From positions 1-52,701 of IMG/VR virus record IMGVR_UViG_3300042465_005662: a DNA stretch of 52,701 bases; one strand, written 5' to 3'. The position numbers and the translations under genes are program-made. Below, piece by piece: positions 7,984 through 52,701 of this stretch (positions are counted from its first letter, which is position 1; each line of letters begins with the position of its first letter). The DNA is from a virus (lineage: Duplodnaviria > Caudoviricetes). Under the pieces are notes generated by a model, which saw only the letters and a program-made list of their open reading frames with translations, was not told the DNA's origin and did no database searches.

Positions 7984-8219
7984 CCGCCGAAGACGAAGAA
8001 TTCAACCGCATCGAGCGCGAGGCATCCATGCGCAAGGCCGCGGTCCTCGTCGCGATCACCAAGAAGGAGTGGATCAGCCTCCCGGACGAAGAGATAGTTG
8101 CCGCGATCCACGAGGCTGAGGGGTTCGCCTTTGGCCTGGACAACGGCAACGTGTCGGACAGGTCCGTGATCGAGTATGTGCGGATTGTTGAAGAACTGCT
8201 GAGGAAGAAAAACACATGA
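7980..8219 (+). CDS. hypothetical protein (EDEEFNRIERE...W..L.DEEI...LRKKNT)
   Basis: ATGA coupling. Confidence 0.7.
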   Translation: MTAEDEEFNRIEREASMRKAAVLVAITKKEWISLPDEEIVAAIHEAEGFAFGLDNGNVSDRSVIEYVRIVEELLRKKNT

Positions 8220-8845
8220 GCTACATCATTGCATCCCTCCCTCCGCTCAAATGCTTTGTGCGGCGCGAGTTTCTGTACAACCACACCAAGGGCCAGGGCG
8301 AGTTTGAGCCCGCCATCTGGGTCAGCATTAAAGCGCTGCGCGGTCAGGTGTTCAGGATCGAATCGCTCCTGCCCAACTACGGCGCGCTGTACGACAAGCT
8401 GCCCTTGCATGCCTATGTCTGGACACACAGCCACGGCGACTTGCCCATCGACACGCTGCAACTGTGGGACTGCATGGGCTACCGCTTCACGGTCCTCGAG
8501 AAGATCGGTCTGCGCAACCTCGGCGTCAAGTTCCTGGGTAAGGACAAGAAGTGGCACCACGGGCGCTACATGTTCACCGTGGACTTCTGTGCGGACGGTA
8601 TGGACGTTGACACGGGGTTCACGGAGCAGGCTGAGGAGCACAAGAGCTTCAACTTCATCCGCTTGGAGAACGGCCAGTTTGCTTGCCAGCCAAACAACCG
8701 CTGCCTGTGGTACGACCAGAGCTTGATTCCTGCTGAGGTGAAGCTCCCTGATTTCCAGGCGGCGAAGGATTTTTACACTGTTGACGGTTCGCGCAAATGG
8801 GCCGCGGGCGACGATTGGTTTTACGGTATGGAGGAGAGAACATGA
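8216..8845 (+). CDS. conserved uncharacterised phage protein (VRREFLY...QPNNR)
   Basis: Long coupled ORF with strong GC3 bias; motif pattern familiar from aquatic phages. Confidence 0.85.
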   Translation: MSYIIASLPPLKCFVRREFLYNHTKGQGEFEPAIWVSIKALRGQVFRIESLLPNYGALYDKLPLHAYVWTHSHGDLPIDTLQLWDCMGYRFTVLEKIGLRNLGVKFLGKDKKWHHGRYMFTVDFCADGMDVDTGFTEQAEEHKSFNFIRLENGQFACQPNNRCLWYDQSLIPAEVKLPDFQAAKDFYTVDGSRKWAAGDDWFYGMEERT

Positions 8846-9051
8846 AAAAAGACATGAAGGTCTGGGCGATCAAGCTCAGGGGCCGCAGCTTCTACAAAGA
8901 CAGCTACGACATTCCTTTTGTTTATCCAACAAGGATTGCCGCGGTGATGGAAACCGAGAAGATTGCAGACTGGAAGAACAGGAACCCGATGAACAGAAGC
9001 CCATCAACCGAAGTAGTGCGCGTCAGATTGCGCATAGAGGAGATCGCATGA
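8842..9051 (+). CDS. hypothetical protein
   Basis: GGAGG RBS, ATGA coupling. Confidence 0.65.
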   Translation: MKKDMKVWAIKLRGRSFYKDSYDIPFVYPTRIAAVMETEKIADWKNRNPMNRSPSTEVVRVRLRIEEIA

Positions 9052-9284
9052 GAAAACAAACCTGCAACTGCCACCCTGACTCACCTTTTCACTGGGCGCG
9101 CAACCCGCAGCCCAGCATTTTTGTCAATGATGTCGCGTTCCGGCCCAAGAAGGCGCAGGTGTACGAGAACCTGACACAGGAGGAGAACCTAGTGGCCTAC
9201 AAGCAATTCAGCATCCACAGCCGTGCGCATCCCAAGATCAAGCCAAGCCTGAACAAACACGAACTCGGAGGGATTAGAAAATGA
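9048..9284 (+). CDS. hypothetical protein (CNCHPDSPF)
   Basis: AGGAG RBS, ATGA coupling. Confidence 0.65.
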   Translation: MRKQTCNCHPDSPFHWARNPQPSIFVNDVAFRPKKAQVYENLTQEENLVAYKQFSIHSRAHPKIKPSLNKHELGGIRK

Positions 9285-9466
9285 AATGGAAAGAGTGGGG
9301 CGAGAACCATTGGGTGCTGATCGACAGCCGAGGCGAAGTGGTTGACGAAATCAAACGCGACAGCCAATTCTTCTTTGTACTGAAAAGCACCAACAAGAAG
9401 TTTGTCGACATCAACAAAGCCAAGAAATCTAGAATGACAGGAGTAGAAAATGGAAAACGGGATTAA
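9281..9466 (+). CDS. hypothetical protein
   Basis: GGAGG RBS, ATGA coupling. Confidence 0.6.
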   Translation: MKWKEWGENHWVLIDSRGEVVDEIKRDSQFFFVLKSTNKKFVDINKAKKSRMTGVENGKRD

Positions 9467-9740
9467 AAGAATTCGTCTGTGCATGGGCCTGACCCAGCAG
9501 CAGTTTGCTGACATGCTGGAATGCTCCCAGGGCAACATTGGCCACTACGAGCTGCGCGATCAAATGGTCCCGCCCGAGACGGCCAGGAAACTTATTGCTG
9601 AAGCCGCGAAGCGCGGTTCACGAGTCACGTACGAAGACATCTACGGCACCGTGGACGAGCCTGTTGTCAAGATGAGCCCCCGCGCACGCAGGGAGATATT
9701 GGAAATCACCGAAAGGAGAGCACGCCATGCAGAAGATTGA
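9450..9740 (+). CDS. XRE/Cro-family HTH transcriptional regulator
   Basis: IKRIR..MGLTQQQFADML..SQGNIGHYE HTH_3 pattern. Confidence 0.85.
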   Translation: MENGIKRIRLCMGLTQQQFADMLECSQGNIGHYELRDQMVPPETARKLIAEAAKRGSRVTYEDIYGTVDEPVVKMSPRARREILEITERRARHAED

Positions 9741-10125
9741 ACACGACGTCTACGTCATCATCACCGAGTTGGGCGCACAGGCCGAAGTGGTGATCCCTCC
9801 GTTTGAGCTCAACGACATCCGCCGCGAGCGTGACGAGTACCTGTCGCAGACAGCCTCTGACCTCTACGACCGTGTGGTGTACATGGTGCGCAGTGAAGGC
9901 TTGGAATACGACCCTGTGCTGGACGAGGGCGAGGGCCCTGCAGTGGAGCTGGAAGTGCGCATGGGCATGTTCTCTACATCCACTGTGTTTTGGCGCGAGA
10001 CGCGGCGCGAGAGGCAGGACAGGGTAAAAGAGGTCATCAACGAAGCGTTCGCTCGCGTGTTGAACATGCAGAGAAACTTTGACGACTTGGCACGCGAAGA
10101 GGAAGAAGATGAGAAAGCGAAGTAA
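9727..10125 (+). CDS. hypothetical acidic protein
   Basis: AAAGGAG RBS, coupled ORF. Confidence 0.75.
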   Translation: MQKIEHDVYVIITELGAQAEVVIPPFELNDIRRERDEYLSQTASDLYDRVVYMVRSEGLEYDPVLDEGEGPAVELEVRMGMFSTSTVFWRETRRERQDRVKEVINEAFARVLNMQRNFDDLAREEEEDEKAK

Positions 10126-10597
10126 ATACCGGCCACGCGGCGTGATTTACGACACCATGCTGCACGTCACGAGCGGCATGAAGGTGGTAGGTGCAATCAG
10201 CGCTGGGACCACGCTCAAGATCAAGAATCACGCGGCGCTCGAACAGGTGCGCCAGGGCCTCGGTACGCGAGAAGATATTGACGTTCTCATTTGCGCATTC
10301 AACATCACAGAAGCTCTGGCTTTGATGCGCATTGGGGACGACTGGAAGGATGAGATTCGGGCCGCGCAAGACGCGCTCCTGGCGGTGGGACGCCGGGGCG
10401 TGGAGACTGGCAAGTTTATTTTGCGCGGACCCGAGCTCACCTCTTTCAACTTGGCCATGGAGATACATGACGCACAACTCGATGCCTGTACTGTAGCTGA
10501 ATTGGAAAAGGCTATCGACTTTGTCGAGACGATTGTCAAGAACAAACAGGCACGGCCCATCATACGAAAGCAGCATGCAAAAGAAGAACACGCCTGA
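10109..10597 (+). CDS. hypothetical protein (MRKRSKYRP... family)
   Basis: GAGG RBS before ATG at 10109; basic N-terminus then helical domain. Confidence 0.75.
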   Translation: MRKRSKYRPRGVIYDTMLHVTSGMKVVGAISAGTTLKIKNHAALEQVRQGLGTREDIDVLICAFNITEALALMRIGDDWKDEIRAAQDALLAVGRRGVETGKFILRGPELTSFNLAMEIHDAQLDACTVAELEKAIDFVETIVKNKQARPIIRKQHAKEEHA

Positions 10598-10733
10598 GGG
10601 CGCAGCACCCCTATCACAAGAGGAGCTCAAGGCTTGGTGGCCCTTTGAGCGCCTGGACCCGAAGAGGTTCCCCAAGCAACCCAAGGCCACTGAACCCGAT
10701 CCGCTTGCGGACATTGAAGAAGCACTTTTATAG
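10575..10733 (+). CDS. hypothetical protein (WWPFERLD)
   Basis: Fills the gap in the operon; weak RBS. Confidence 0.55.
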   Translation: MQKKNTPEGAAPLSQEELKAWWPFERLDPKRFPKQPKATEPDPLADIEEALL

Positions 10734-10742
10734 GAGAACCCC

Positions 10743-11327
10743 ATGAGCAAAAAATTAAAACCCACCACCCTTGCAATTCTTGCAGCCCTGAAGGCCAAAC
10801 CGGAGGCCAAGCCGCGGGAACTTGCTGCAGAGTACGGCGTCGCTGTCAGCTACATCTACAAGCTGCGCAAGAAGCTGACCGAAGGCAGGCGCAAGATTAC
10901 CCTGACCCGCGACCAAGTGGAGATCGCAAAGAAGTTGGGCGTGTCCCTGGAAGACTATGTCAAAGAAGGCCTGAAGATGGGCGCGCTGCAGTTTGACGGC
11001 GAGCGTCCAATCGTCAATCCAGAGATCACTATGGAGCCCGAGGAGACGAACGTGGACCAGATTCTGGGAGAGCGCGGCAATCGCTACGGCACCTTTGAAA
11101 GCAATGCCAAGACCTGCCAGTTGCTGAAGAACGTGCTGCACTCACAAGAGGGCTGGTACCGCCTTTCTTATGTCCAACGTGAGGCGGTGGAAATGATGAT
11201 GCACAAGATCTCCCGCTTGGTGAATGGTGATGCGACCTATCTTGATACGGTTGTTGACATTGCAGGCTATAATCAGCTCATGTTGGAACACATGAGGGAT
11301 CGAAATGAAGGCAAGAAAGTGGAATAA
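10743..11327 (+). CDS. HTH + scaffold-like motif + DUF6378-like (all-alpha NTP pyrophosphohydrolase-like) domain protein
   Basis: C-terminal L.ERG.RYG.F...EM..HKI.R...GD...D...DIAGY; N-terminal HTH (PRELAAEYGVAVSYIY); AGGAG RBS. Confidence 0.75.
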   Translation: MSKKLKPTTLAILAALKAKPEAKPRELAAEYGVAVSYIYKLRKKLTEGRRKITLTRDQVEIAKKLGVSLEDYVKEGLKMGALQFDGERPIVNPEITMEPEETNVDQILGERGNRYGTFESNAKTCQLLKNVLHSQEGWYRLSYVQREAVEMMMHKISRLVNGDATYLDTVVDIAGYNQLMLEHMRDRNEGKKVE

Positions 11328-11841
11328 CAGCACGCAGCAACGGGCATATTACTCCTGGAGAAACATGCGCAGACGCTGCACCAATCCTAGCGATGACTCC
11401 TATCACCACTACGGGGGTCGTGGCATAACAGTGTGTGAACGCTGGGAAAGCTACGACGCCTTTTTTGAAGACATGGGCAACCCGGCACCGGGCCTGTCAC
11501 TTGATAGGATTGATAACAGCAAGGGCTATTCACCAGAGAATTGCCGATGGGCCACGGTCCGCGAGCAACTTAACAATCAGCGCAGAAATGTGGTGATTGA
11601 ACACAGCGGCATCAAGATGACGATTGGTCAGTGGGCCACGCATCTTGGGCTGCATTACGACACCCTTCACAAACGGCTTGAACGGATGGGGCCCGAAAAG
11701 GCTCTTCAAAAAGGCAGATTGAAAGAGTGGAAGCACGGAACGCGGGCCGGGTATGAAGGCCACGGCTGCCGCTGCGACCTTTGCAAAGAATCAAACAACG
11801 CCCGTCACCGGGCACAAAGAGAGAAACGGAGAAACACATGA
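11305..11841 (+). CDS. free-standing HNH-type homing endonuclease-like protein
   Basis: W..M..RC...Y..YGGRGI.VC.RW...LDRIDN..GYSPENCRWAT; C-terminal HGT..GY..GCRC..C. Confidence 0.8.
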   Translation: MKARKWNNSTQQRAYYSWRNMRRRCTNPSDDSYHHYGGRGITVCERWESYDAFFEDMGNPAPGLSLDRIDNSKGYSPENCRWATVREQLNNQRRNVVIEHSGIKMTIGQWATHLGLHYDTLHKRLERMGPEKALQKGRLKEWKHGTRAGYEGHGCRCDLCKESNNARHRAQREKRRNT

Positions 11842-12005
11842 GCGATACCGTAGGCCTTGTCTTGATGATCTGGGTTGCAGCCGCATGGCTCACCCACGTG
11901 GTGGCTTCTATCCAAACAGCAAAGTGGCTTTTGCTGCTGGTCGGGGCCATTTTCTTTCCTGTTGGCTGCGTGCACGGCACGGGCATTTGGTTTGGGTGGT
12001 TTTGA
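11838..12005 (+). CDS. small membrane protein, 55 aa, two TM-like segments
   Basis: GGAG RBS, ATGA coupling, hydrophobic sequence. Confidence 0.7.
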   Translation: MSDTVGLVLMIWVAAAWLTHVVASIQTAKWLLLLVGAIFFPVGCVHGTGIWFGWF

Positions 12006-12295
12006 TGAACACCACACGCATCAAACCTGAAGAAGCGCGGGCCATGGTCCTCGCTGCCTTACGCGCGCACGACTACAAGGGCAAGACCTCGGAGTTGGCA
12101 CAGTGGACGGGGCTGCCGTCTTCTGTTGTCCGCCGCGCGGGCTTGTACCTGTCGTCGGACCTGCAATTGGACGCACAGCGGGCATCTGGCGCAGCCAAGG
12201 GGGAGTACCTCTTCACCCTGCGCCAGCTTGACCTGTTCGAAGACCAAAAACCTCCGGCCAGCATATGGCAGAAGGTCAAGAACTGGTTTCGTTAA
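12005..12295 (+). CDS. putative winged-HTH protein
   Basis: TGATG coupling; TSELAQWTGLPSSVVRR helix-turn-helix-like segment. Confidence 0.6.
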   Translation: MNTTRIKPEEARAMVLAALRAHDYKGKTSELAQWTGLPSSVVRRAGLYLSSDLQLDAQRASGAAKGEYLFTLRQLDLFEDQKPPASIWQKVKNWFR

Positions 12296-12318
12296 AAAGG
12301 GCCCCGCGGGGCCCTTTT
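12294..12318. terminator. bidirectional intrinsic terminator
   Basis: AAAAGGGCCCC-gcg-GGGCCCTTTT between convergent genes. Confidence 0.85.
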
Positions 12319-14182
12319 ATTTTGCTTCGCCCCAGCTTGGGCCAACTTCTACGTCACACCGGTTGGGCACTTCCATCTTGACGCAGTTTGCCATGATCTG
12401 AGCAGCCTGCAGCGCCTCATCTTTGGTGCGCACGGACAGGGCCAGCTCATCGTGCACTTGGAGGATAGGATCAAAGCCTGCCTTTTTCAGGGCCACCATG
12501 GCCGCTTTGGTCTGGTCTGCGGCAGACCCCTGGATTAAACGATTGAGCCCCTTGTAGGTGCCTGCGCGCTTGATCCTGGAGCCGTATTCAATCACAGCCT
12601 GTTCACGTGGCAGCGCTTTGTTCACGCCCCACTCCATTGGTTCCCAAAGAGGGAACCGACACTTGCGGCCAAGCAGCGTGCGGATCGCGCCGCCTGCAGC
12701 CGGATGGTCAATCCGCTTCATCACCGCGTTGACCGTGCCCTTGAGGAACGGGACGTTGGTATGGAACCGTGTGATCAGCTCCTCCGCTTCGCTCAGGGCC
12801 AAGTCTAGTTGCGCCGCGAGCTTGTTCTTGCCCATGCCGTACATCAGGCCCAGGCCGATCGTCTTGGCTGCCTTGCGTTTGATCCCGGCCATGTCCGCCA
12901 CCATCTGGTGGAAGTCGGTGTTGGGATCGTTGTTGTAGGCGTCGACCATGGTGTCGGCCCCGGGCAGGCCTAGGAGGCTTGCGTAGTGCACCAGCAAGCG
13001 CGGTTCTTGGGACGAGAAGTCATTTGATGCCCACATGTGCCCCTGCTCAGGCAGGAACAGGCCACGCACCATCGGGCCAATGATCTCGTGCCGGGCAGGC
13101 ACCTGCTGGAGGTTGGGGTTGGCCATGGACAAACGGCCAGTGACCGTGCCGCCATCATCAGAGCGCATCTGGTTGACGTGGGGATGGATGCGTCCTGTCT
13201 TGGCACTGAAGTCCATGTAAGGCTGCAGGAATGTGCTGTGCGTCTTGTTGGTCTCGCGCGCCTCAATGATCATCTTGGCCAGCGGGTGATCGTGGTTGTC
13301 CAGGAACTGCTTGGTGAAGCTGGGTGCGCCCTGCTCGGTCTTGGCATACTGAATGCCCAGGCGGTCGAAGGCGTGGGCAATGGACGCCGCACCCCAGATG
13401 TCGATCTTGACGCCTGCCTGCTCTTTCATCTCTTTGAGCAACTGGTGCTCGCGGGTGCGCATGCGGTCAATCATCAGGCCGCACTTCTCCCTGTCAAAGC
13501 GGATGCCCTTGCGGGTCATCTCCAGCAGCACAGGGAACACATCGGTCTCGACACCGAAAATGGATTCGACTTCATCCTGGCGCATCTTGATCTTGAAGTG
13601 CTGCCAGAGCTTGAGGGTCAGCGCCGCGTCTTGCTCCGCGTACTCGCCGACGTACATCGCTGGGAGCTTCCAGAGCTCTTTCTTAGGGTGGACGCCAAAG
13701 TCGGCTGCCGCTTGTTTAAGCCCTTGCTCCGATTTAATCTCTTGGAGGTAGTCGAAGCCAAGCGCATTAAGGCTGAACGAGAAACGGTTTTCGTCAAGAA
13801 GGGGGGCCGCAAGCATAGTGTCCATGATTCGGCCATTGATTGTGAATCCACTGGCACCCAGCCACCCGGCGTCGTAGGCCGCGTTGTGCATGATCTTGTC
13901 GGCGGGGGTGGCCAGAACGTCTTTGATCCATCGTTCCACCATCCTTTTATCGAGATTACCTCCTCCAGCATGAGCAACAGGATAGTACCCAGACCACCCA
14001 TCCACAGCGATGGCATATCCAACAATAAACCCGTCAGCACGAGGCCAGCCGGGACCAAAAGACTCCAGGTTCGGATCGCATGTTTCGAGGTCAATTGCTA
14101 TCTCCTTGGCTGTGGATAAGTTGGGGAAAGTTTCCGGAGCAACCCACTCTGTGGGGGTCGGGAAAAGTGGCATGGTTCTCAT
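12317..14182 (-). CDS. polA: DNA polymerase family A with 3'-5' exonuclease domain
   Basis: Exo DLET and HNAAYD; TGRLS..PNLQQ; motif A DFSSQEPR; motif B KTIGLGLMYG; motif C QVHDEL. Confidence 0.95.
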   Translation of the reverse strand: MRTMPLFPTPTEWVAPETFPNLSTAKEIAIDLETCDPNLESFGPGWPRADGFIVGYAIAVDGWSGYYPVAHAGGGNLDKRMVERWIKDVLATPADKIMHNAAYDAGWLGASGFTINGRIMDTMLAAPLLDENRFSFSLNALGFDYLQEIKSEQGLKQAAADFGVHPKKELWKLPAMYVGEYAEQDAALTLKLWQHFKIKMRQDEVESIFGVETDVFPVLLEMTRKGIRFDREKCGLMIDRMRTREHQLLKEMKEQAGVKIDIWGAASIAHAFDRLGIQYAKTEQGAPSFTKQFLDNHDHPLAKMIIEARETNKTHSTFLQPYMDFSAKTGRIHPHVNQMRSDDGGTVTGRLSMANPNLQQVPARHEIIGPMVRGLFLPEQGHMWASNDFSSQEPRLLVHYASLLGLPGADTMVDAYNNDPNTDFHQMVADMAGIKRKAAKTIGLGLMYGMGKNKLAAQLDLALSEAEELITRFHTNVPFLKGTVNAVMKRIDHPAAGGAIRTLLGRKCRFPLWEPMEWGVNKALPREQAVIEYGSRIKRAGTYKGLNRLIQGSAADQTKAAMVALKKAGFDPILQVHDELALSVRTKDEALQAAQIMANCVKMEVPNRCDVEVGPSWGEAK

Positions 14183-41166: not shown

Positions 41167-44079
41167 TTATCCTTTTGCCTCAAGGGCTTCTACACGCTTG
41201 GTCAGTTCCGACAATGCGGCCAGAGCCAATGCGCTGAGTTTTTCGTAGTCTACCGCGAGAGAGCCATCGGGTCGAGTGCGGACTGCAATCGGGAACACCT
41301 TTTGAACGTCCTGAGCAATGACACCAAAGTCCTGTTTCTGAACGAAATAATCGTCCGGTCCGCCGTGGTCTGCGATGTATGCGTCTGTCCAGTCAAACAA
41401 CTTGCCGCCAATCGCTTTGGCGGTAGCCGCTGCGTTGGGGATGTCCCGCACATTTTCTTTGAACTTGATGTCAGAGGAGAAGAACGCTATGACGTTGTTG
41501 GTGGCGCGGATTTCGCCCGCAGTGCCCGATGCTGCTACGCCCACGCCCAGAGAGTTGACTTGGTAGTTGTTGCCTGTTGCCAAGGCGTTGGCCGTGGTGG
41601 CTGTTGTAGCGGTGGTTGCGTTTCCGTTCAAAGCCCCTGTAAAAGATGTCGCCGCTAAATCGCCCGTTGTTTTTGTGAACGTGAACCGGGTTGTTCCGTT
41701 GTCTGTGATGATGAAGCTGACCGCCGCTGCCTCAAGTTCCATCTCCATCGTGTTGTTCGTTCCGTCGTAGAAGAACTGCGTATCGTCACTGGTGCCAAAG
41801 CGAAGTATGTCACTGTCAGCCAAATCAATGGCGGAGCGCACATTCAACGTGCTGTCCACCGTCAAGTTGGTGAACTGGCCGTTTGACCATGTGTTTGCGG
41901 CATCTCCTATTACGCCCGTATTGTCTGCGGCAGGATAGATACTGGTGGAGGCAACAATGGTAGTAGCGTTGACAGTCCCGCCCGATTGGTTGGTGGCGGT
42001 GGTGGCTGTCGCAGCGTTACCTGTGGTGTTTTGATTCAGCGTGGGAATGTCCGCAGCAACAACAGCCCGGAATGTGGGAACGCCTGCTGTGCCGTTTGGC
42101 GCAGCCAATACAAAGTTGGCTGTTTTGGAAGCGTAGGGGTTCTGTGTGTCGCCGTACCCCGATGCAAGGCTGATCGCTGGAGTTGCGCCGCCGCTTGAAA
42201 CTACGGGAGATGTGCCAGAAACAGAAGTAACGGGAGCAGTTCCGCTGGACACCGCAGTAACAAGACCCTTACCGTTTACCGTGACGCTTGCGTTTGTAAA
42301 AGACCCGACGTTTGAGTTGACGGTCGCCAGAGTGCCTGCTGCTGTTACGTTACCCGAACCGTTGAACGATGGGCTTGTGTACGCCAAATCGCCAGTGATT
42401 GCAATGGTTCGTCCTGTCTGCAAAGCCGTGGCTGTAGCGGCATTGCCTGAAGTCGAGCTAGATGTTGTGGCGTTCCCGTTTAAGGCGGCGGTGATTGTGC
42501 CCGCAGCAAAGTTACCGGAGGCATCTCGTGCCACCACTTTGGAGGCGGTGTTTGTGGTCGTGGCGTCCACGGTCCATGTCTGTGCACCAGAGCCGTTGTA
42601 GGCCGTGCCGGTCAGGTATGTACCTGCGGTCAAGCTGTTCAGGTTGGAGCCCAAAGCCACACCAGAGATCGTGCCTGCCACGTAAGCAAACGCAGAGCCG
42701 TTCCAGCTCAAAACCTGCCCAGAGGCTGACGGGGCCACAATAAACGCAGTGGTTGCAGCGCCGGTGTTGTACACGATACGGTTGGCCGCGCCGCCCGCCA
42801 CGTTGGTAGCCGAAGTAGCATTGCCGGAAAGAGCCGCTGTAATGGTGCCCGCAGAGAAGTTGCCCGAGGCATCCCGCGCTACGACCTTGGAGGCGGTGTT
42901 GGCATCTGTGGCGTCCACAGCAAACGTACGAGCAGCAGAGCCGTTGTACGTGCCGCCGCTGGTCAGGAAAGTGCCCGCAGTTAGTGCGTTGGCCACAGAA
43001 CCAGCTTGGCCTGTGATGTTGCCCGACACAGCGGAGCCGTTGATGGCAATGGCCGTGTTGGTAACGCTTGTGACTTGCCCCTGCGCGTTCGTGACAAACA
43101 CCGGAACCTGTGAGGCCGAGCCGTATGTGCCCGCAGTGCCGGTGTTGGTGATGCTGAACTGAGTGCCCGAAAGCGTCAGGCCGGTGCCCGCACTGTAAAT
43201 CTGCGCAGAAGAGACTTGTGCAAACGTGATGTTGGTTGTGCCAAACGTAATCGTTCCGACGGTGTTGCAGGTATATGTCTCGCCCGCGCCTGTTGTGCCT
43301 TCTTGAACGAAAAAGGTTGAGCCTTCGCTCAGTGTGTCAGGGCCAGCAAACCCAAAGGTGTCAGCATCATCTGAACGGGTCAAGACCCAGTTGGTCGAGC
43401 CAGAGCCAATGCTGGTAACGACATACACGCCGTTTTGCGTTTGGTTGGTCTGCTCGTACACCAGCACACGGTCGGCCACCACCATCGTGATGCCGTCGAT
43501 CACCAAGGCAGCCTGCGTGCCTGCATTTGTCAGTGTGGCTCCAACCCCAGACGTGCCGTTGTTGTACGTTGCATTCAGGTTGATTGGAGACTCAACTCGG
43601 ACAGGCTCATGGAAGTGAATGCCGCTTGCTACCAACGTGTCCACGTAGGTCTTGTTGACGATGTCAGTTGCCGCTGAAGGTGTAGTGGAGACTGTGCCCG
43701 TCGTCAGCGCAGCGGAAGTGGCTGTGATGGCCCCAAACGATAACTGCGCCACAATGCCAGCGGCGTCCAAGTAGACCGACTTGCTTGACGGGTAGGTACA
43801 GAACACGTCCTTGCTGCCTGCAGCAAACGAAACCGCCGCGCCGCCAGTACTGGAAGACAAAATCGTGGTGCGGGACAGCGTGGTGCCCGAGGTGGTGTAT
43901 GTACCAATGCCAACTTCCCAGTCCCCCGTGGTGTTGTCAACGATGGCGTAATACGTGGTGTTGCTGTCACCCACGACGGAAAAAGACTGAAAGCCCGCAG
44001 CCGCACCGGCCAGTGTTACTGTGCCCGTGCCTGTCGTGGTGGTGGTTTCCTTAACCCGGTCTTTGAGTACTAAAGCCAT
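41167..44079 (-). CDS. long tail fibre with C-terminal peptidase S74 intramolecular chaperone domain
   Basis: [13 protein letters not shown]-terminus, NKTYVD, Q..QNGVY; C-terminal SD.KFKEN...GVIAQDVQ...VDY. Confidence 0.85.
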
Positions 44080-45639: not shown

Positions 45640-46086
45640 TTACGAAATACGCACAATGGCGCTGTTGGCATCGGGGGTTGGGAAAATGATCTGGAAGGTG
45701 TCGTTGTTCACGGTTTTGTCCGAGCCAAAATCCAGCACCGCAACAGACTTGTTGCCTTTGGACAAATTGTAGATCAGTGCACCGCGTGCAGTAAAGGTCG
45801 AACTAACCCACGACGTATTGGCAAAAGACCAAAAGGCAGTAGGCACGCCGCTCAGGTTGTTCCCGGTCGTCGGGGAAACACTCACGGTGAGCGTATTGCC
45901 TCCTGCGATATAGCCTGCGCCCACGACCTCACCTGCTGTCGTATAGGCCGAAGTGGCCTCGCCAATCGACGCGGCAGAGGTGTACAGGGCAACTTTGTAC
46001 GTGTCTGGGGAAACAGGTCCAAAGTTGTGGATGCCTTGCGGCAGCTCTACTTTGAACGATGTGGTCGCAGTTTGAAAGATGGCCAT
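45640..46086 (-). CDS. virion structural protein (SFK.EL..G.HNF...KVALYT...ARGALIYN), paralogue A
   Basis: Family motifs; paralogue of 46102-46524. Confidence 0.8.
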   Translation of the reverse strand: MAIFQTATTSFKVELPQGIHNFGPVSPDTYKVALYTSAASIGEATSAYTTAGEVVGAGYIAGGNTLTVSVSPTTGNNLSGVPTAFWSFANTSWVSSTFTARGALIYNLSKGNKSVAVLDFGSDKTVNNDTFQIIFPTPDANSAIVRIS

Positions 46087-46101: not shown

Positions 46102-46524
46102 TTAATTGACGCGAATGAGCGCGCTTTCCGCGTCATTCGTAGGCAACTGGATTTGGAACTGCTGGCTTAGCACCGTCTGGTTCAAGCCAAAGTTGAGGAC
46201 AGCGATTGACTTGCCTGCTTTGGTCGAGTTGTAGATCAATGCCCCACGGGTGGTAAACGTCGCCGCATTCCAGGTCGGATTGTTGAACGAGACAAAGGCA
46301 ATGCCCAGGCTTTCTGACAACGACACGGTGACACCTGTCAGTATCTCGCCCGTAGCGGTGTACGCCGTGCCCACCACTTCGTTGCTGGAGGTGTACTCAG
46401 GCGTGAGCGGGCCCAGCTCTGCATCGGCGGTGTACAGCGCAATTTTTAGCACGTCTGTGCTGAAGTCGTGCACACCCAGGAGGAGCTGTTCCTTGAAGGT
46501 ATTGGTGAGGCCTGCTGTGATCAT
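46102..46524 (-). CDS. virion structural protein (TFK.QLL.G.HDF...KIALYT...RGALIYN), paralogue B
   Basis: Family motifs; GAGG RBS. Confidence 0.8.
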   Translation of the reverse strand: MITAGLTNTFKEQLLLGVHDFSTDVLKIALYTADAELGPLTPEYTSSNEVVGTAYTATGEILTGVTVSLSESLGIAFVSFNNPTWNAATFTTRGALIYNSTKAGKSIAVLNFGLNQTVLSQQFQIQLPTNDAESALIRVN

Positions 46525-50495: not shown

Positions 50496-51410
50496 TTACG
50501 CAGCGCCAGGAGAACCGTAGATACCACGTGGGTCAGACCAGCCGAAGCTGTAACGCTCACGGGCCTTGTAACGCACGTTACCGGTGTCGAAGTCGCCTTC
50601 GAAAGCGGTCTTGATGGGCGAACGGTTGAACATCTTCAGGCCGTTAGGCGCGTCGGTGATCAGGAACCATGCATCCACGTCGGTCAGGTAGTGGTTGACA
50701 GCGTAACCTTCGGGAATCAAGCCCATGGACTTGATCGCGTTGATATCGTTGTCAGCAGTGCCAGTGCGCAAAGTGCTCTTCATCAGGCGCTCTGCAGTGA
50801 ACTGCAGTTCCTTAGGAACGATCATCTTGCGTGCTGTCAAGGCAACCTTCAGGCCACGTTCGTCCGTGAACGCCGCGATGTCGATGATGCCTTGCTCGAG
50901 GGATGTCTCGTTCAAGTCAGCAGCAACCAAGGGGCGGTTCGCGAAGTTAGGACCCAAGGCAGTGGGGTGAGCAGTAGACATCAAAGCCACGCCGTCACCA
51001 CCAGCGTATTGACCGCCGGTGAAGCCATTGTTCAACACGGAAGCAGCTTTAACTTGCTTGGTGTTGGCCATGGAACGAGCCAGAGCCTTGGTGTAACGAG
51101 CAGACAGACGGTCGTAGAGGTTGTCCTCGACGGCTTCTTCTGTCAGCGCGAACGCCATAGCGATGGTTTCGTGGGTGTAGCGAGCAGTGAACGATTCCAA
51201 AGCGGTGTCGTATGCCAAGCCAGCACCTTCGGTCTTCACCGGAGCGGAGCCGAAGCCAGTCAACATCACCTCTTCTTCGAACGCACGATCAGATGTCTCG
51301 GTAGAGAAAATCTCTTCGTGTTCGTTCTCGTAGCGCTTGTACTCAATACCGAACAGGGCGTTCAGGCCCGGCTCAAGTTCTTTAACGAGTTGGGAACGGG
51401 TAATAGCCAT
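50496..51410 (-). CDS. major capsid protein (Mu gpT-like annotation family, HK97 fold)
   Basis: MAITRSQLVKELEPGLNALFG...DNLYDRLS.RYTKALARSM...KARERYSFGWSDPRG; highly biased codons; followed by a terminator. Confidence 0.9.
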   Translation of the reverse strand: MAITRSQLVKELEPGLNALFGIEYKRYENEHEEIFSTETSDRAFEEEVMLTGFGSAPVKTEGAGLAYDTALESFTARYTHETIAMAFALTEEAVEDNLYDRLSARYTKALARSMANTKQVKAASVLNNGFTGGQYAGGDGVALMSTAHPTALGPNFANRPLVAADLNETSLEQGIIDIAAFTDERGLKVALTARKMIVPKELQFTAERLMKSTLRTGTADNDINAIKSMGLIPEGYAVNHYLTDVDAWFLITDAPNGLKMFNRSPIKTAFEGDFDTGNVRYKARERYSFGWSDPRGIYGSPGAA

Positions 51411-51412
51411 GA

Positions 51413-52000
51413 TTATGCTCCGTCAGCTGCAACACCGACGCTACCGTACTGGTGTTGATTGAGTTTAACAACGACCACTGCATAGTTGCCCAACTCATTG
51501 TCAGGAACAGCATAGAGGCCAACGATCTTGAAAGTCAGGGCCTGGGTCTTGGCAATTGTGGACGAGTCCAAAGTGCCATTAGAGATGCCGTTGACTGTGC
51601 TACCAGTAGTAGAAGCGGTTGGGTCAGCGTTCTTGCCGATGTCGGCCTGAACAATGTCCTCATCAGCTTGAACCAGGAACAACTGGGAAGGATCGTCCAA
51701 AACTTCGCAATAGATTGCGCCGATTTCGACGTTGATGCTACCGGGGTAGTAGTTCTTCCAAGTCGGCTTGTTGGCACGAGTTGGGTCGTTGTACTGGCAG
51801 CCGTTGAACACGCCGGTGGGGGCAGTGTGCGTGGATGCATCGTACTTAATGATGTAACCATCAAACAGAACGACGAGGTCGCCCTGGAAAATGGCTCCGG
51901 CCTGGTTGTCGGCGATCTCGTAACCGTATTGCTTTTGTGCACCGGTAGCAGAGAGGTTACCCGACGGACGCAGACCAAAAGGCTTGTTGATGTTTGCCAT
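51413..52000 (-). CDS. capsid-associated (cement / stabilising) protein
   Basis: MAN...PFGLRP...IFQGDLV...GVF.GC.Y.DP; directly upstream of the capsid gene. Confidence 0.7.
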   Translation of the reverse strand: MANINKPFGLRPSGNLSATGAQKQYGYEIADNQAGAIFQGDLVVLFDGYIIKYDASTHTAPTGVFNGCQYNDPTRANKPTWKNYYPGSINVEIGAIYCEVLDDPSQLFLVQADEDIVQADIGKNADPTASTTGSTVNGISNGTLDSSTIAKTQALTFKIVGLYAVPDNELGNYAVVVVKLNQHQYGSVGVAADGA

Positions 52001-52026: not shown

Positions 52027-52506
52027 TCAGCCTTGCGGCTGACGGAATGTTGTGCGCGAGCTCCGGTCAGGTGACTGGATTCGCATTGAAGAGTGAGCGT
52101 TCTCACGCATCATCTCGTTGTCCACAGCATGCAACTGTTCCTGTGCCCTCTGGCGGAAATAGGCGTTCCGTTCCTCAACAGTCTCGTCGGGAATCTTGGC
52201 AAGCAAGAGTCCACCAACAGAGATCACGCCAGCATGTTTGCCGTCGTCCATCGTGGGCAGTGTCGCGCGGTATTCCTCAGGAATATTTTCGGGGCGAACG
52301 AGTTCGTATCCCTCACGCAGCTTGCTGTACACGTTCTGGTTGTCGAGAGTGCCGTTGATTTCGGAACGAATCCAACGGTACTTGAATCCTTCGGGGGCAG
52401 GTGGTGCATCCAAGCGCGAAGGTGGACGCCATGGCTTGCGACGAGATTCTTTGTCCCGGCTTTCGGCGGAACGGCTGGCTCGATCGATAGTTAGTTTTTC
52501 GCTCAT
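52027..52506 (-). CDS. conserved head-assembly protein (W.PPS.LDAP...YRWIR...REGYELVR...GGLLLAKIP)
   Basis: Between scaffold and capsid genes; AAGGAG RBS. Confidence 0.75.
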   Translation of the reverse strand: MSEKLTIDRASRSAESRDKESRRKPWRPPSRLDAPPAPEGFKYRWIRSEINGTLDNQNVYSKLREGYELVRPENIPEEYRATLPTMDDGKHAGVISVGGLLLAKIPDETVEERNAYFRQRAQEQLHAVDNEMMRENAHSSMRIQSPDRSSRTTFRQPQG

Positions 52507-52509
52507 GAC

Positions 52510-52701
52510 TTACTCCTTTACGTACTTGGCATACTCTTCGAGAGGTACACCCAGCTTCTTTGCAATAGCAACCTGACTCGGCGATAACCGGACAGTTCGG
52601 CGCGCACTATTTATTCCGGAACTCCGGGATGCAGGGGCAACAGCAGGCGCGGAACGCTGTTGTCTGGAGGATTGGTTAGACGATTGCTCGCCCGCGAACT
52701 T
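52510..52701 (-). CDS. capsid scaffolding protein, C-terminal 63 aa (5' part outside the window)
   Basis: Open frame ending ...RRTVRLSPSQVAIAKKLGVPLEEYAKYVKE-stop, upstream of the head genes. Confidence 0.7.
   Translation of the reverse strand, partial: KFAGEQSSNQSSRQQRSAPAVAPASRSSGINSARRTVRLSPSQVAIAKKLGVPLEEYAKYVKE

What the first reader, a model, noticed from the sequence alone, without database searches (positions are those of the whole stretch)
10887..10964. Copy of the scaffold's C-terminal motif inside an unrelated DUF6378-like protein: possible capsid-loading tag or assembly modulator
Seen: residues 49-74 of ORF 10743-11327 (RRKITLTRDQVEIAKKLGVSLEDYVK) match the C-terminus of the putative scaffold about 42 kb away (RRTVRLSPSQVAIAKKLGVPLEEYAK, about 52525-52602) at 16 of 26 positions, while the codons are diverged. 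Known: scaffold C-terminal helix-turn-helix segments bind the inner capsid surface (P22 gp8), and short targeting peptides load cargo into HK97-fold encapsulins. Inference: this HTH + nucleotide-hydrolase-like protein may be packaged into proheads via a scaffold-mimic tag and delivered at infection, for example against nucleotide-signal defences. Alternatively it competes with scaffold to time assembly or interfere with co-infecting relatives.
Basis: partly seen in the sequence, partly recalled or inferred. Interest (0 to 1): 0.8.

Follow-up and report, generated by a model that had tools for sequence, protein, structure and literature searches.

The report
Scaffold tail copied into early protein
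An early, regulator-like phage protein carries a well-conserved copy of the short tail piece of the phage's own capsid-scaffolding protein, which may tether it to assembling capsids, but this has not been tested at the bench.

Summary
Residues 49-74 of ORF 10743-11327 match the C-terminus of the truncated scaffold-like ORF (52525-52602, minus strand) at 16 of 26 positions (BLASTP E 4e-9). Eleven of the 16 shared residues use different codons.

- **The carrier.** It has an Lrp/AsnC-type winged helix, then the motif, a disordered linker and DUF6378. It sits in an early-looking plus-strand operon.
- **The motif in the scaffold.** It is the near-invariant last ~30 residues of a ~311-aa coiled-coil scaffold, in an abundant phage group related to Phage DSL-LC04 and Pelagibacter phage HTVC023P.
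- **The motif in the carrier.** It is an optional cassette, present in 78 of 120 homologs. It is the best-conserved segment where present, and recombination swaps it in and out.
- **Specificity.** Among the 150 best of 1.84 billion representatives, only scaffold tails (148) and this family (2) carry it. It does not score against generic HTH families.
- **Fold.** The model is strand-helix-turn-helix, with weak likeness to ribbon-helix-helix proteins.
- **Docking.** A fold with the capsid protein gave only weak support (0.37; best control 0.00).

Scaffold-derived binding is my best reading (about 0.4). A dimerisation or DNA-binding module is a serious rival. "Nucleotide-hydrolase-like" is unsupported.

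The parts
10743..11327 (+). Carrier gene: 194-aa protein, winged helix + scaffold-like motif + disordered linker + DUF6378. AGGAG lies at 10732-10736, six bases before the ATG.
   Evidence: ORF listing. Pfam HTH_24 23.7 bits (cut-off 21.9) and DUF6378 32.1 bits (cut-off 27.1). Upstream sequence. The exact protein is seen on 5 contigs in 4 sources.
10761..10883 (+). N-terminal winged helix-turn-helix, residues 7-47 (helices 7-18, 24-31, 35-47).
   Evidence: AF2 model, mean pLDDT 74.6. VIA-align matches Lrp/AsnC regulators, for example 9w4v_A Z 6.5, rmsd 1.7, 44 aligned. Foldseek's top rows are Lrp/AsnC/MarR, E 0.2 or more.
10887..10964 (+). Scaffold-like motif as reported, residues 49-74. The structured unit runs to about residue 79 (10979): a basic extended segment 48-55, helix 56-64, turn, helix 69-79.
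10752..11003 (+). Swappable cassette (winged helix + motif + start of linker). A 91-95% identical, collinear relative carries unrelated sequence here.
   Evidence: blastn of window 8000-14000 against L005: aligned 8214-10751 (90.9%) and 11004-12008 (95.1%), nothing between. The L005 protein has a different winged helix and no motif.
11052..11303 (+). DUF6378 helical domain, residues 104-187. Function unknown.
   Evidence: Pfam. PHROGs 17775/474/16943. Helices 104-187 in the model. No convincing solved fold, best Z 7.1 among generic bundles.
52510..52701 (-). Last 63 codons plus stop of the scaffold-like gene. The N-terminal ~250 codons lie beyond the contig end.
   Evidence: PHROG 28737 E 5e-14. 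Full-length homologs are 301-320 aa.
52525..52602 (-). Scaffold copy of the motif, ending 4 residues before the stop.
   Evidence: The same tail sits 4 or 5 residues from the end in 80 of 80 related IMG/VR loci.
50496..51410 (-). Major capsid protein (304 aa), the presumed partner of the scaffold tail.
   Evidence: Pfam Phage_capsid_4 E 2.6e-13 and Mu-like_gpT E 4.6e-6. PHROG 371 major head protein. 74-95% identical in 16 of 17 related records searched. Complex fold.

Best explanation
What it is (confidence about 0.9). The segment is a true, selected homolog of the conserved C-terminal module of this phage group's scaffolding protein. An early, regulator-like protein (winged helix + DUF6378) acquired it as an optional cassette in its flexible linker.

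How it most likely works (inferred). The cassette gives the carrier the binding specificity of the scaffold tail. The partner would be the inner face of the capsid protein, or scaffold tails paired through a strand-helix-helix dimer. Once capsid and scaffold proteins accumulate, part of the carrier pool would be tethered to, or built into, assembling procapsids.

What is not known. The consequence of tethering is undecided: delivery with the virion, late sequestration of an early regulator, or mild modulation of assembly.
For: Homology and selection:
- BLASTP E 4e-9.
- PHROG 28737 hit by the peptide at E 9.8e-6.
- A scaffold-only HMM hits 78 of 120 homologs.
- 11 of 16 shared residues use different codons.
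- Among 75 carriers the motif columns are the best conserved: mean pairwise identity 0.70, against 0.50 for the winged helix and 0.65 for DUF6378.

Specificity:
- The motif profile found 594 of 1.84 billion representatives at E 0.001 or better.
- Of the 150 best, 148 carry it within 37 residues of the C-terminus (scaffold type) and 2 are this DUF6378 family.
- No Pfam HTH or RHH family is hit by the peptides at E up to 10.

The scaffold tail looks like a binding element:
- It is near-invariant in 80 of 80 loci, while the whole scaffolds are 46-85% identical.
- The capsid protein is also highly conserved, 74-95%.
- From established knowledge, scaffold C-termini bind the capsid protein in P22, 80alpha and others. 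For 80alpha I read passages of PMC5644958.

Accessibility: the motif lies between a low-confidence segment (residues 41-50, mean pLDDT 66) and a disordered linker (88-102, pLDDT under 50).

Complex fold of the capsid protein with ORF residues 44-86: weak support.
- ipSAE 0.37 (runs 0.40, 0.34, 0.37); best of 3 controls 0.00.
- The mark was reached by 58 of 80 solved complexes and 2 of 110 mismatched pairs.
- At 0.60 or under it was reached by only 7 of those 80 solved complexes, and by both mismatches that passed.
- The runs agree in at least 96% of contacts, and partner pLDDT is at least 76.
- By the tool's own wording, such a pass is more often wrong than right unless the guess was likely beforehand.
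Against: - The cassette is dispensable. 42 of 120 homologs lack it, although 2 of these are truncated fragments. Identical 92-aa DUF6378 domains occur with and without it.
- None of the other 21 records searched with the motif profile has a second copy. Two of them are 100% complete.
- The gene sits in an early-looking plus-strand operon with a Cro-like HTH and an HNH endonuclease, not among the structural genes.
- In the carrier the motif is internal, whereas in scaffolds it is always terminal.
- The model resembles ribbon-helix-helix DNA-binding proteins, which suits a regulator without any capsid link.
- The residues that would face outward on the strand differ between the two families (alignment).
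- The complex score is weak, no interface was reported, and no positive control (scaffold tail with capsid protein) could be run.
- Scaffolds normally leave the capsid, so a scaffold-type tag does not by itself predict retention in virions.
- No proteomic or expression data exist.
Confidence: 0.4

Rival explanations
1. The cassette is a small ribbon-helix-helix-like module that dimerises the carrier, binds DNA, or both, alongside the winged helix. It shares ancestry with the scaffold tail but has no functional link to capsids.
For: - The motif-only model (pLDDT 82.7) is an extended segment plus helices 13-22 and 26-36.
- Foldseek's best small-protein rows are CopG, AmrZ, ORF56, CdbA and TacA1. 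For CopG 1ea4_E: TM 0.54, rmsd 3.2, 38 columns, E 4.4.
- VIA-align gave Z of 2 or more for 46 of 48,161 chains. Two say ribbon-helix-helix in their titles (2rbf_A Z 2.7, rmsd 2.9, 34 aligned; 2bnw_A Z 2.1). About 20 are proteins I recall as having that fold: Arc, omega, NikR, ParD, DinJ, TacA, MazE N-domains, NikA, SvtR, PcfF and TraM.
- The carrier has a DNA-binding-type winged helix and lies next to a Cro-like gene.
- The motif is optional, as an accessory dimeriser could be.
Against: - All structural scores are far below significance: E of 3 or more, Z of 2.9 or less.
- No Pfam RHH family is hit at E up to 10, and no RHH or HTH chain is found by profile search of PDB sequences.
- Surface-type residues (Q, KK, E, K) stay conserved between the scaffold and carrier copies despite 58% nucleotide identity. 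Shared fold alone does not require that.
- Among the 150 best of 1.84 billion representatives the module occurs only in scaffolds and this family, not in regulators at large.
Confidence: 0.3
2. The carrier is an assembly modulator or competitor. It occupies scaffold docking sites, as SaPI1 CpmB does on 80alpha capsid protein, to time assembly or to interfere with co-infecting relatives.
For: - Same homology evidence as above.
- Weak support from the complex fold (score 0.37 against 0.00, with the caveats given under the best explanation).
- Precedent: the CpmB C-terminus is homologous to the 80alpha scaffold C-terminus and competes for the same capsid-protein site (PMC5644958, abstract and passages).
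- The presence/absence polymorphism between near-identical genomes is the pattern expected of conflict or accessory genes.
Against: - The gene is part of the phage's own collinear backbone, not a satellite.
- The scaffold tail is invariant across the group, so a competitor would hit self and relatives alike.
- Nothing suggests a capsid-size or lattice-altering domain.
- The winged helix and DUF6378 have no known assembly role.
Confidence: 0.15
3. It is a neutral by-product of illegitimate recombination that happened to insert a scaffold fragment, and has no function of its own.
For: The carrier gene is highly mosaic. There are at least 16 changes of motif state on the DUF6378-domain tree of 116 homologs, and the cassette occupies different linker positions in different homologs.
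Against: - It is the best-conserved segment among 75 carriers.
- It is maintained with synonymous divergence.
- It is found with at least three winged-helix types and at different linker positions.
Confidence: 0.03

Closest known systems
SaPI1 CpmB, a scaffold C-terminus mimic that competes with the 80alpha scaffolding protein
   Same: A non-scaffold protein carries a short segment homologous to the C-terminal capsid-binding piece of the scaffold. In CpmB that piece binds the same capsid-protein site (PMC5644958, abstract and passages read).
   Different: CpmB is encoded by a satellite, its mimic segment is C-terminal, and it redirects capsid size. Here the carrier belongs to the phage itself (collinear relatives). 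The segment is internal, the rest of the protein is a winged helix plus DUF6378, and binding is only weakly predicted.
P22 gp8 C-terminal helix-turn-helix coat-binding domain, and its engineered use as a cargo-loading tag in P22 virus-like particles
   Same: A short basic two-helix element at the scaffold C-terminus. Fusing it to cargo loads capsids. I saw only search listings and abstracts of PMC9962691 and 10.1101/2022.12.13.520362; the rest is recalled.
   Different: A profile search of PDB sequences with the motif found no scaffolding protein. The model here has an added N-terminal extended segment and looks ribbon-helix-helix-like. The P22 tag use is man-made, whereas this would be natural.
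Capsid-targeting signals of phage-encoded cargo: the HK97 protease C-terminus, the T4 internal-protein targeting sequence and encapsulin cargo-loading peptides (all recalled; only search listings were seen for T4)
   Same: A short peptide is enough to place a protein inside an HK97-fold shell.
   Different: Those signals are terminal, unrelated in sequence, and mark dedicated structural or cargo proteins. This one is an internal, optional, recombining cassette in an early-region protein.
Phage Mu gpI/gpZ protease-scaffold C-terminus (Pfam Mu-like_Pro)
   Same: Mu gpZ ends in a similar pattern. By eye, 9 of 21 positions are identical to the scaffold core without gaps (sequence). The window's capsid protein also hits Mu-like_gpT. 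The carrier peptide hits the last 28 positions of Mu-like_Pro at E 0.032.
   Different: That hit is below Pfam's cut-off (14.2 against 25.2 bits). The scaffold-only HMM does not detect Mu gpZ (-3.3 bits). Full-length scaffolds do not hit Mu-like_Pro at E up to 10. The link is only suggestive.
Ribbon-helix-helix repressors (CopG, Arc, omega and similar)
   Same: Predicted strand, helix, G-x-S/P turn, helix. These proteins fill much of the short list of structural neighbours.
   Different: No sequence-family hit. The scores are not significant. Dimer formation and DNA binding were not tested. The parent copy sits at the end of a scaffold, not in a repressor.

Membership tests
Phage scaffolding protein (for ORF 52510-52701 and its ~311-aa homologs) | Gene lies in the head module, between the portal and major capsid protein genes | tested here: met
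   In Phage DSL-LC04 and Pelagibacter phage HTVC023P the order is portal, small ORFs, GroES-like, this protein, two small ORFs, capsid protein. In the window the order scaffold tail, 159 aa, 195 aa, capsid protein is the same.
Phage scaffolding protein (for ORF 52510-52701 and its ~311-aa homologs) | Elongated helical or coiled-coil protein without an enzyme domain | tested here: inconclusive
   Only weak coiled-coil-type hits (Fib_alpha E 0.004-0.018; SMC E 0.07) and no other domain. The composition is acidic and glutamine-rich. No structure was predicted for it.
Phage scaffolding protein (for ORF 52510-52701 and its ~311-aa homologs) | Present in procapsids, absent from mature virions; C-terminus binds the capsid protein | not testable with these tools
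   Needs procapsid and virion proteomics or binding assays.
P22 gp8-type C-terminal helix-turn-helix coat-binding domain | Two short amphipathic helices joined by a turn at the extreme C-terminus of the scaffold | tested here: met
   Helices 56-64 and 69-79 in the carrier model, and 13-22 and 26-36 in the motif-only model, where blocks 11-40 have pLDDT 87-92. The scaffold copy ends 4-5 residues before the stop in 80 of 80 loci.
P22 gp8-type C-terminal helix-turn-helix coat-binding domain | Sequence relationship to P22 gp8 | tested here: not met
   The profile of the motif against all PDB chain sequences at E up to 10 found 19 sequences, none a scaffolding protein. This concerns membership only, not mode of action.
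Ribbon-helix-helix superfamily | Strand-helix-helix topology | tested here: inconclusive
   RHH proteins dominate the neighbour lists, but at Foldseek E of 3.3 or more and VIA Z of 2.9 or less. In the monomer model the N-terminal segment is extended, with a single bridge residue.
Ribbon-helix-helix superfamily | Match to an RHH sequence family | tested here: not met
   No Pfam RHH family at E up to 10 for either peptide. HMMER's filters drop many weak matches.
Ribbon-helix-helix superfamily | Obligate intertwined dimer with a two-stranded ribbon | not tested
Pfam Mu-like_Pro (Mu gpI/gpZ) C-terminal end | Score above the family's gathering cut-off | tested here: not met
   The carrier peptide scores 14.2 bits against a cut-off of 25.2. 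Full-length scaffolds give no hit. The scaffold-only HMM against Mu gpZ gives -3.3 bits.
Pfam DUF6378 (PF19905) | Score above the gathering cut-off | tested here: met
   32.1 bits against 27.1, residues 106-180.
Winged helix-turn-helix, Lrp/AsnC-like (Pfam HTH_24) | Score above the gathering cut-off, plus fold match | tested here: met
   23.7 bits against 21.9, residues 7-47. VIA Z 6.2-6.6, rmsd 1.7-2.5 over 44-47 residues to Lrp/AsnC regulators.
   None appears in Pfam at E up to 1, NCBIfam, PADLOC, Foldseek PDB or the VIA wide list. Two PHROGs are labelled 'phosphofructokinase', a label I could not verify.
CpmB-type scaffold mimic | Segment homologous to the cognate scaffold's C-terminus | tested here: met
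CpmB-type scaffold mimic | Encoded by a satellite that parasitises the phage | tested here: not met
   The gene lies in the phage backbone, with flanks 91-95% identical to a related phage contig.
CpmB-type scaffold mimic | Binds the capsid protein at the scaffold site | tested here: inconclusive
   Weak support only: ipSAE 0.37, best control 0.00, and no interface reported.

The most novel reading that the evidence does not exclude
A phage has turned the docking tail of its own scaffold into a portable cargo tag. The optional, recombining cassette loads an early DNA-binding/DUF6378 protein into procapsids. The protein then either travels with the virion into the next host, or is withdrawn from the cytoplasm as capsids assemble, which would couple gene regulation to assembly. 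This would be a natural counterpart of the engineered P22 scaffold-fusion loading system. It would be polymorphic in wild populations of a very abundant aquatic phage group.
Probability: 0.2. Interest if true: 0.8.

Novelty: new variant of a known kind. Interest (0 to 1): 0.55.

Why it matters
How phages choose which non-structural proteins enter the capsid is known for only a few models: the T4 targeting sequence, the HK97 protease tail and the P22 ejection proteins.

A scaffold-derived, self-encoded tag would be a simple and evolvable route. It could be read from sequence alone in uncultured phages. Natural tagged and untagged alleles of the same gene would serve as ready-made controls.

A defined 30-residue docking module with a near-invariant sequence would also be a practical handle for building cargo-loading capsids from this lineage.

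If the module instead proves to be a ribbon-helix-helix dimeriser, the interest moves to the scaffold. A scaffold ending in such a domain has not turned up in print in my searches (3 papers hold 'scaffolding protein', 'ribbon-helix-helix' and 'procapsid', none in title or abstract; I did not read them).

Tried and rejected
- A sequence search of PDB with the whole protein and with the motif profile found only designed helical-repeat proteins and chance rows.
- Foldseek with the whole model matched only the winged helix at E 0.2 or more. The VIA wide list gave only generic helical bundles for DUF6378.
- The ESM Atlas, queried with residues 46-82, gave no usable feature hit among named clusters. 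By structure it gave three unnamed viral clusters.
- NCBIfam and PADLOC gave nothing above their cut-offs.
- The Mu link was tested and found weak.
- The Shigella phage Sf11 protein seemed to cover the motif region. It aligns there only through a gapped, dissimilar linker and has no motif.
- Other carriers: 49 of the 149 listed representatives analysed have scaffold-type tails on unrelated N-termini. The four I looked up are singletons on contigs of 583-2,448 bases. I treat them as fragments or chimeras, not as further carrier families. The 444 weaker hits were not shown to me and may hold others.
- No sigma-70-like promoter was found in 9200-12400.
- Literature on DUF6378: 3 papers hold the term, and I saw the search listing only. 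For DSL-LC04, one paper, listing only. In PMC9599517 on HTVC023P-type phages the word 'scaffold' does not occur. Its Data Set S1 lists the core genes and may bear on the scaffold's annotation; I did not request the supplements.
- Sequencing-run tools were not used.
Full report
**1.
ORF 10743-11327 (+) encodes 194 residues, and residues 49-74 map to 10887-10964. The minus-strand ORF 52510-52701 runs off the contig end, and its residues 34-59 map to 52525-52602.
- The two 26-residue strings share 16 identities. Eleven of those 16 use different codons, and nucleotide identity is 45 of 78.
- BLASTP gives E 4e-9 for the pair, and E 4e-6 in an all-against-all of 445 frames of the window.
- Two independent profiles see the same thing. 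PHROG 28737, the family of the distant ORF, is hit by the 39-aa peptide of ORF 10743 at E 9.8e-6. An HMM built only from 107 scaffold-type tails hits 78 of 120 homologs of ORF 10743 at 16.8-48.4 bits.
- The window is a complete IMG/VR record, linear and about 85% complete. The N-terminal part of the distant gene is therefore simply missing.

**2. The two genes.**
The distant gene:
- It is the tail of a protein of about 311 residues.
- In Phage DSL-LC04 and Pelagibacter phage HTVC023P the full-length homologs (313 and 353 aa) lie in this order: portal, small ORFs, GroES-like, this protein, two small conserved ORFs, capsid protein, cement protein.
- They are acidic at the N-terminus, rich in charged heptad-like sequence and glutamine, and have no enzyme domain.
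- 'Scaffold' is therefore a sound label by position and composition, though it is unproven.

The capsid protein (50496-51410, minus strand) hits Phage_capsid_4 and Mu-like_gpT.

The carrier:
- It has a good ribosome-binding site, AGGAG six bases before the ATG.
- It lies in a plus-strand block with a Cro-like HTH_3 protein and an HNH endonuclease. A strong hairpin terminator at 12295-12318 closes the block opposite the DNA polymerase gene.
- Its AF2 model (mean pLDDT 74.6) shows these parts:
  - an Lrp/AsnC-type winged helix (residues 7-47; VIA Z about 6.5, rmsd 1.7-2.5);
  - the motif, as an extended basic segment 48-55, helix 56-64, turn, helix 69-79;
  - a disordered linker (88-102, pLDDT under 50);
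  - a helical DUF6378 domain.
- Nothing I ran links DUF6378 to nucleotide hydrolysis.

**3. Distribution of the motif.**
In scaffolds:
- It is the near-invariant tail. In 80 of 80 related IMG/VR loci it ends 4 or 5 residues before the stop.
- The whole proteins in those loci are only 46-85% identical to the query.

In the carrier family (128 proteins at E 0.001 or better, of which the 120 best were examined):
- It is optional: 78 of 120 have it and 42 lack it. Two of the 42 are truncated fragments.
- Where present, it is the best-conserved part. Mean pairwise identity among 75 carriers is 0.70, against 0.50 for the winged helix and 0.65 for DUF6378.
- It occurs with several winged-helix types and at different places relative to other linker elements.
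- I built a tree of the DUF6378 domain from 116 homologs of 150 aa or more, dropping 4 shorter ones; 77 are carriers. Motif state changes at least 16 times on it. In 200 label shuffles the mean was 30.3 and the minimum 23.
- Identical 92-aa DUF6378 domains occur with and without the motif.

At DNA level the window and a related contig (L005) are collinear at 91-95% identity, except that window 10752-11003 is replaced. That stretch holds the winged helix, the motif and the start of the linker.

In 22 records of the group searched with the motif profile, only the window has two copies. Nineteen of the other 21 records have the scaffold copy alone, among them two 100%-complete IMG/VR genomes, DSL-LC04 and HTVC023P. 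Two fragmentary records have no match. Five of ten records have a DUF6378 protein without the motif.

**4. Specificity.**
- A 33-position profile of the motif against 1.84 billion representatives found 594 proteins at E 0.001 or better and 174 at 1e-10 or better.
- Of the 150 listed, 148 carry the motif within 37 residues of the C-terminus (141 of them within 10). Two (P0004, P0391) are the winged-helix/DUF6378 family.
- 99 of the 149 analysed match scaffold N-terminal parts. The other scaffold-type rows are short ORFs. The four I checked are singletons on short contigs, so they are probably fragments or chimeras.
- I did not see the remaining 444 hits.
- The peptides hit no Pfam HTH or RHH family at E up to 10. 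The only Pfam row is the C-terminal end of Mu-like_Pro, at E 0.032 and below its cut-off.
- Mu gpZ ends in a look-alike pattern. My scaffold HMM does not detect it, and the scaffolds do not hit Mu-like_Pro. That link stays suggestive only.

**5. Fold.**
- Modelled alone, with a 7-row alignment, the motif has pLDDT 82.7 and is an extended segment followed by two helices.
- Its structural neighbours are weak: Foldseek E of 3.3 or more, and VIA Z of 2.9 or less, with 46 of 48,161 chains at Z 2 or more.
- The neighbours are nevertheless strikingly one-sided: CopG, AmrZ, PutA's ribbon-helix-helix domain, omega, Arc, NikR and several antitoxin N-domains. Only two entry titles say ribbon-helix-helix; the rest is my recollection of those folds.
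- This is a lead, not a result. It matters because such domains are obligate dimers and usually bind DNA.

**6. Does it dock on the capsid protein?**
- Verdict: weak support. ipSAE was 0.37 (runs 0.40, 0.34, 0.37), and the best of 3 controls was 0.00.
- The runs agreed in at least 96% of contacts, and partner pLDDT was at least 76.
- The tool's calibration: the mark was reached by 58 of 80 solved complexes and 2 of 110 mismatched pairs. At 0.60 or under it was reached by only 7 of the 80, and by both mismatches that passed.
- No interface was reported, so I cannot say whether it sits at a scaffold site. I could not run the scaffold tail as a positive control.

**7. Reading.**
Shown:
- a genuine, selected, scaffold-specific module copied into an early regulator-like protein;
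- it behaves as a recombining accessory cassette.

Inferred:
- The module brings the scaffold tail's binding specificity, so the carrier would be tethered to capsid protein or to scaffold tails during assembly (about 0.4).
- This rests on the general rule that scaffold C-termini bind the capsid protein (for 80alpha, passages of PMC5644958), on the extreme conservation of the tail, on conserved surface-type residues in both copies, and on the weak complex pass.

Rivals:
- The chief rival (about 0.3) is that the module merely dimerises the carrier or helps it bind DNA.
- A CpmB-like competitor role (about 0.15) is a variant of the binding reading.
- A neutral remnant (about 0.03) is contradicted by the conservation.

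**8. Against what is known.**
- The nearest precedent is SaPI1 CpmB, whose C-terminus mimics the 80alpha scaffold tail and competes for its site.
- The nearest use is the man-made P22 scaffold-fusion cargo system (abstracts only).
- The differences here: the carrier is the phage's own gene, the tag is internal and optional, and the passenger is a winged-helix/DUF6378 protein.
- I rate it a new variant of a known kind and moderately interesting. It needs one simple co-expression experiment to decide.

**9. Limits.**
- Everything here is computational.
- The window lacks the scaffold's N-terminus.
- I did not request the supplement of PMC9599517, which lists the core genes of the group.

Noticed in passing
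window 45640-46086 (-) and 46102-46524 (-): Two adjacent minus-strand ORFs (148 and 140 aa) in the structural region are paralogs: 47% identity over 144 residues, E 2.5e-37.
   Followed up: no
window 42146-42601 and 42749-43162 (+ frames, antisense to ORF 41167-44079): Two plus-strand frames match each other (60% over 62 residues, E 3e-13). This points to an internal repeat in the DNA of the 970-aa minus-strand ORF.
   Followed up: no
window 52027-52506 (-) and 51413-52000 (-): Two conserved ORFs of unknown function (159 aa, PHROG 36003; 195 aa, PHROG 37556) sit between scaffold and capsid genes here and in DSL-LC04 and HTVC023P. Pfam and NCBIfam gave no match above their cut-offs (only chance-level Pfam rows at E 0.09 and 0.21).
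   Followed up: partly
L002:4705-5157 and L003:4582-5022 (relatives; beyond the window's end): A GroES-like co-chaperonin gene (Cpn10, E 3.6e-11) lies just upstream of the scaffold gene in the relatives. It is reported as a core gene of HTVC023P-type phages (PMC9599517, passage).
   Followed up: partly
window 11305-11841 (+): An HNH endonuclease gene overlaps the carrier's stop by 23 bases (PHROG 3377, E 1.6e-51). The stretch 11092-11837 has no counterpart in the related locus L006, so it may be a mobile insertion.
   Followed up: partly
window 12295-12318: A strong GC-rich hairpin (10 pairs) with T-runs lies between the end of the plus-strand block and the convergent DNA polymerase gene. It is a likely bidirectional terminator.
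   Followed up: no
protein P0252 (146 aa): Its N-terminus looks (by eye) like the 159-aa protein of window 52027-52506, joined to a scaffold-type tail. It is a singleton on a 583-base contig, so it is probably an assembly chimera. If real, it would be a third carrier of the tail.
   Followed up: partly
proteins P0099 and P0107: After the motif, these carrier homologs have a second short stretch resembling its first helix and turn. The scaffold-only HMM did not score it as a second copy.
   Followed up: partly
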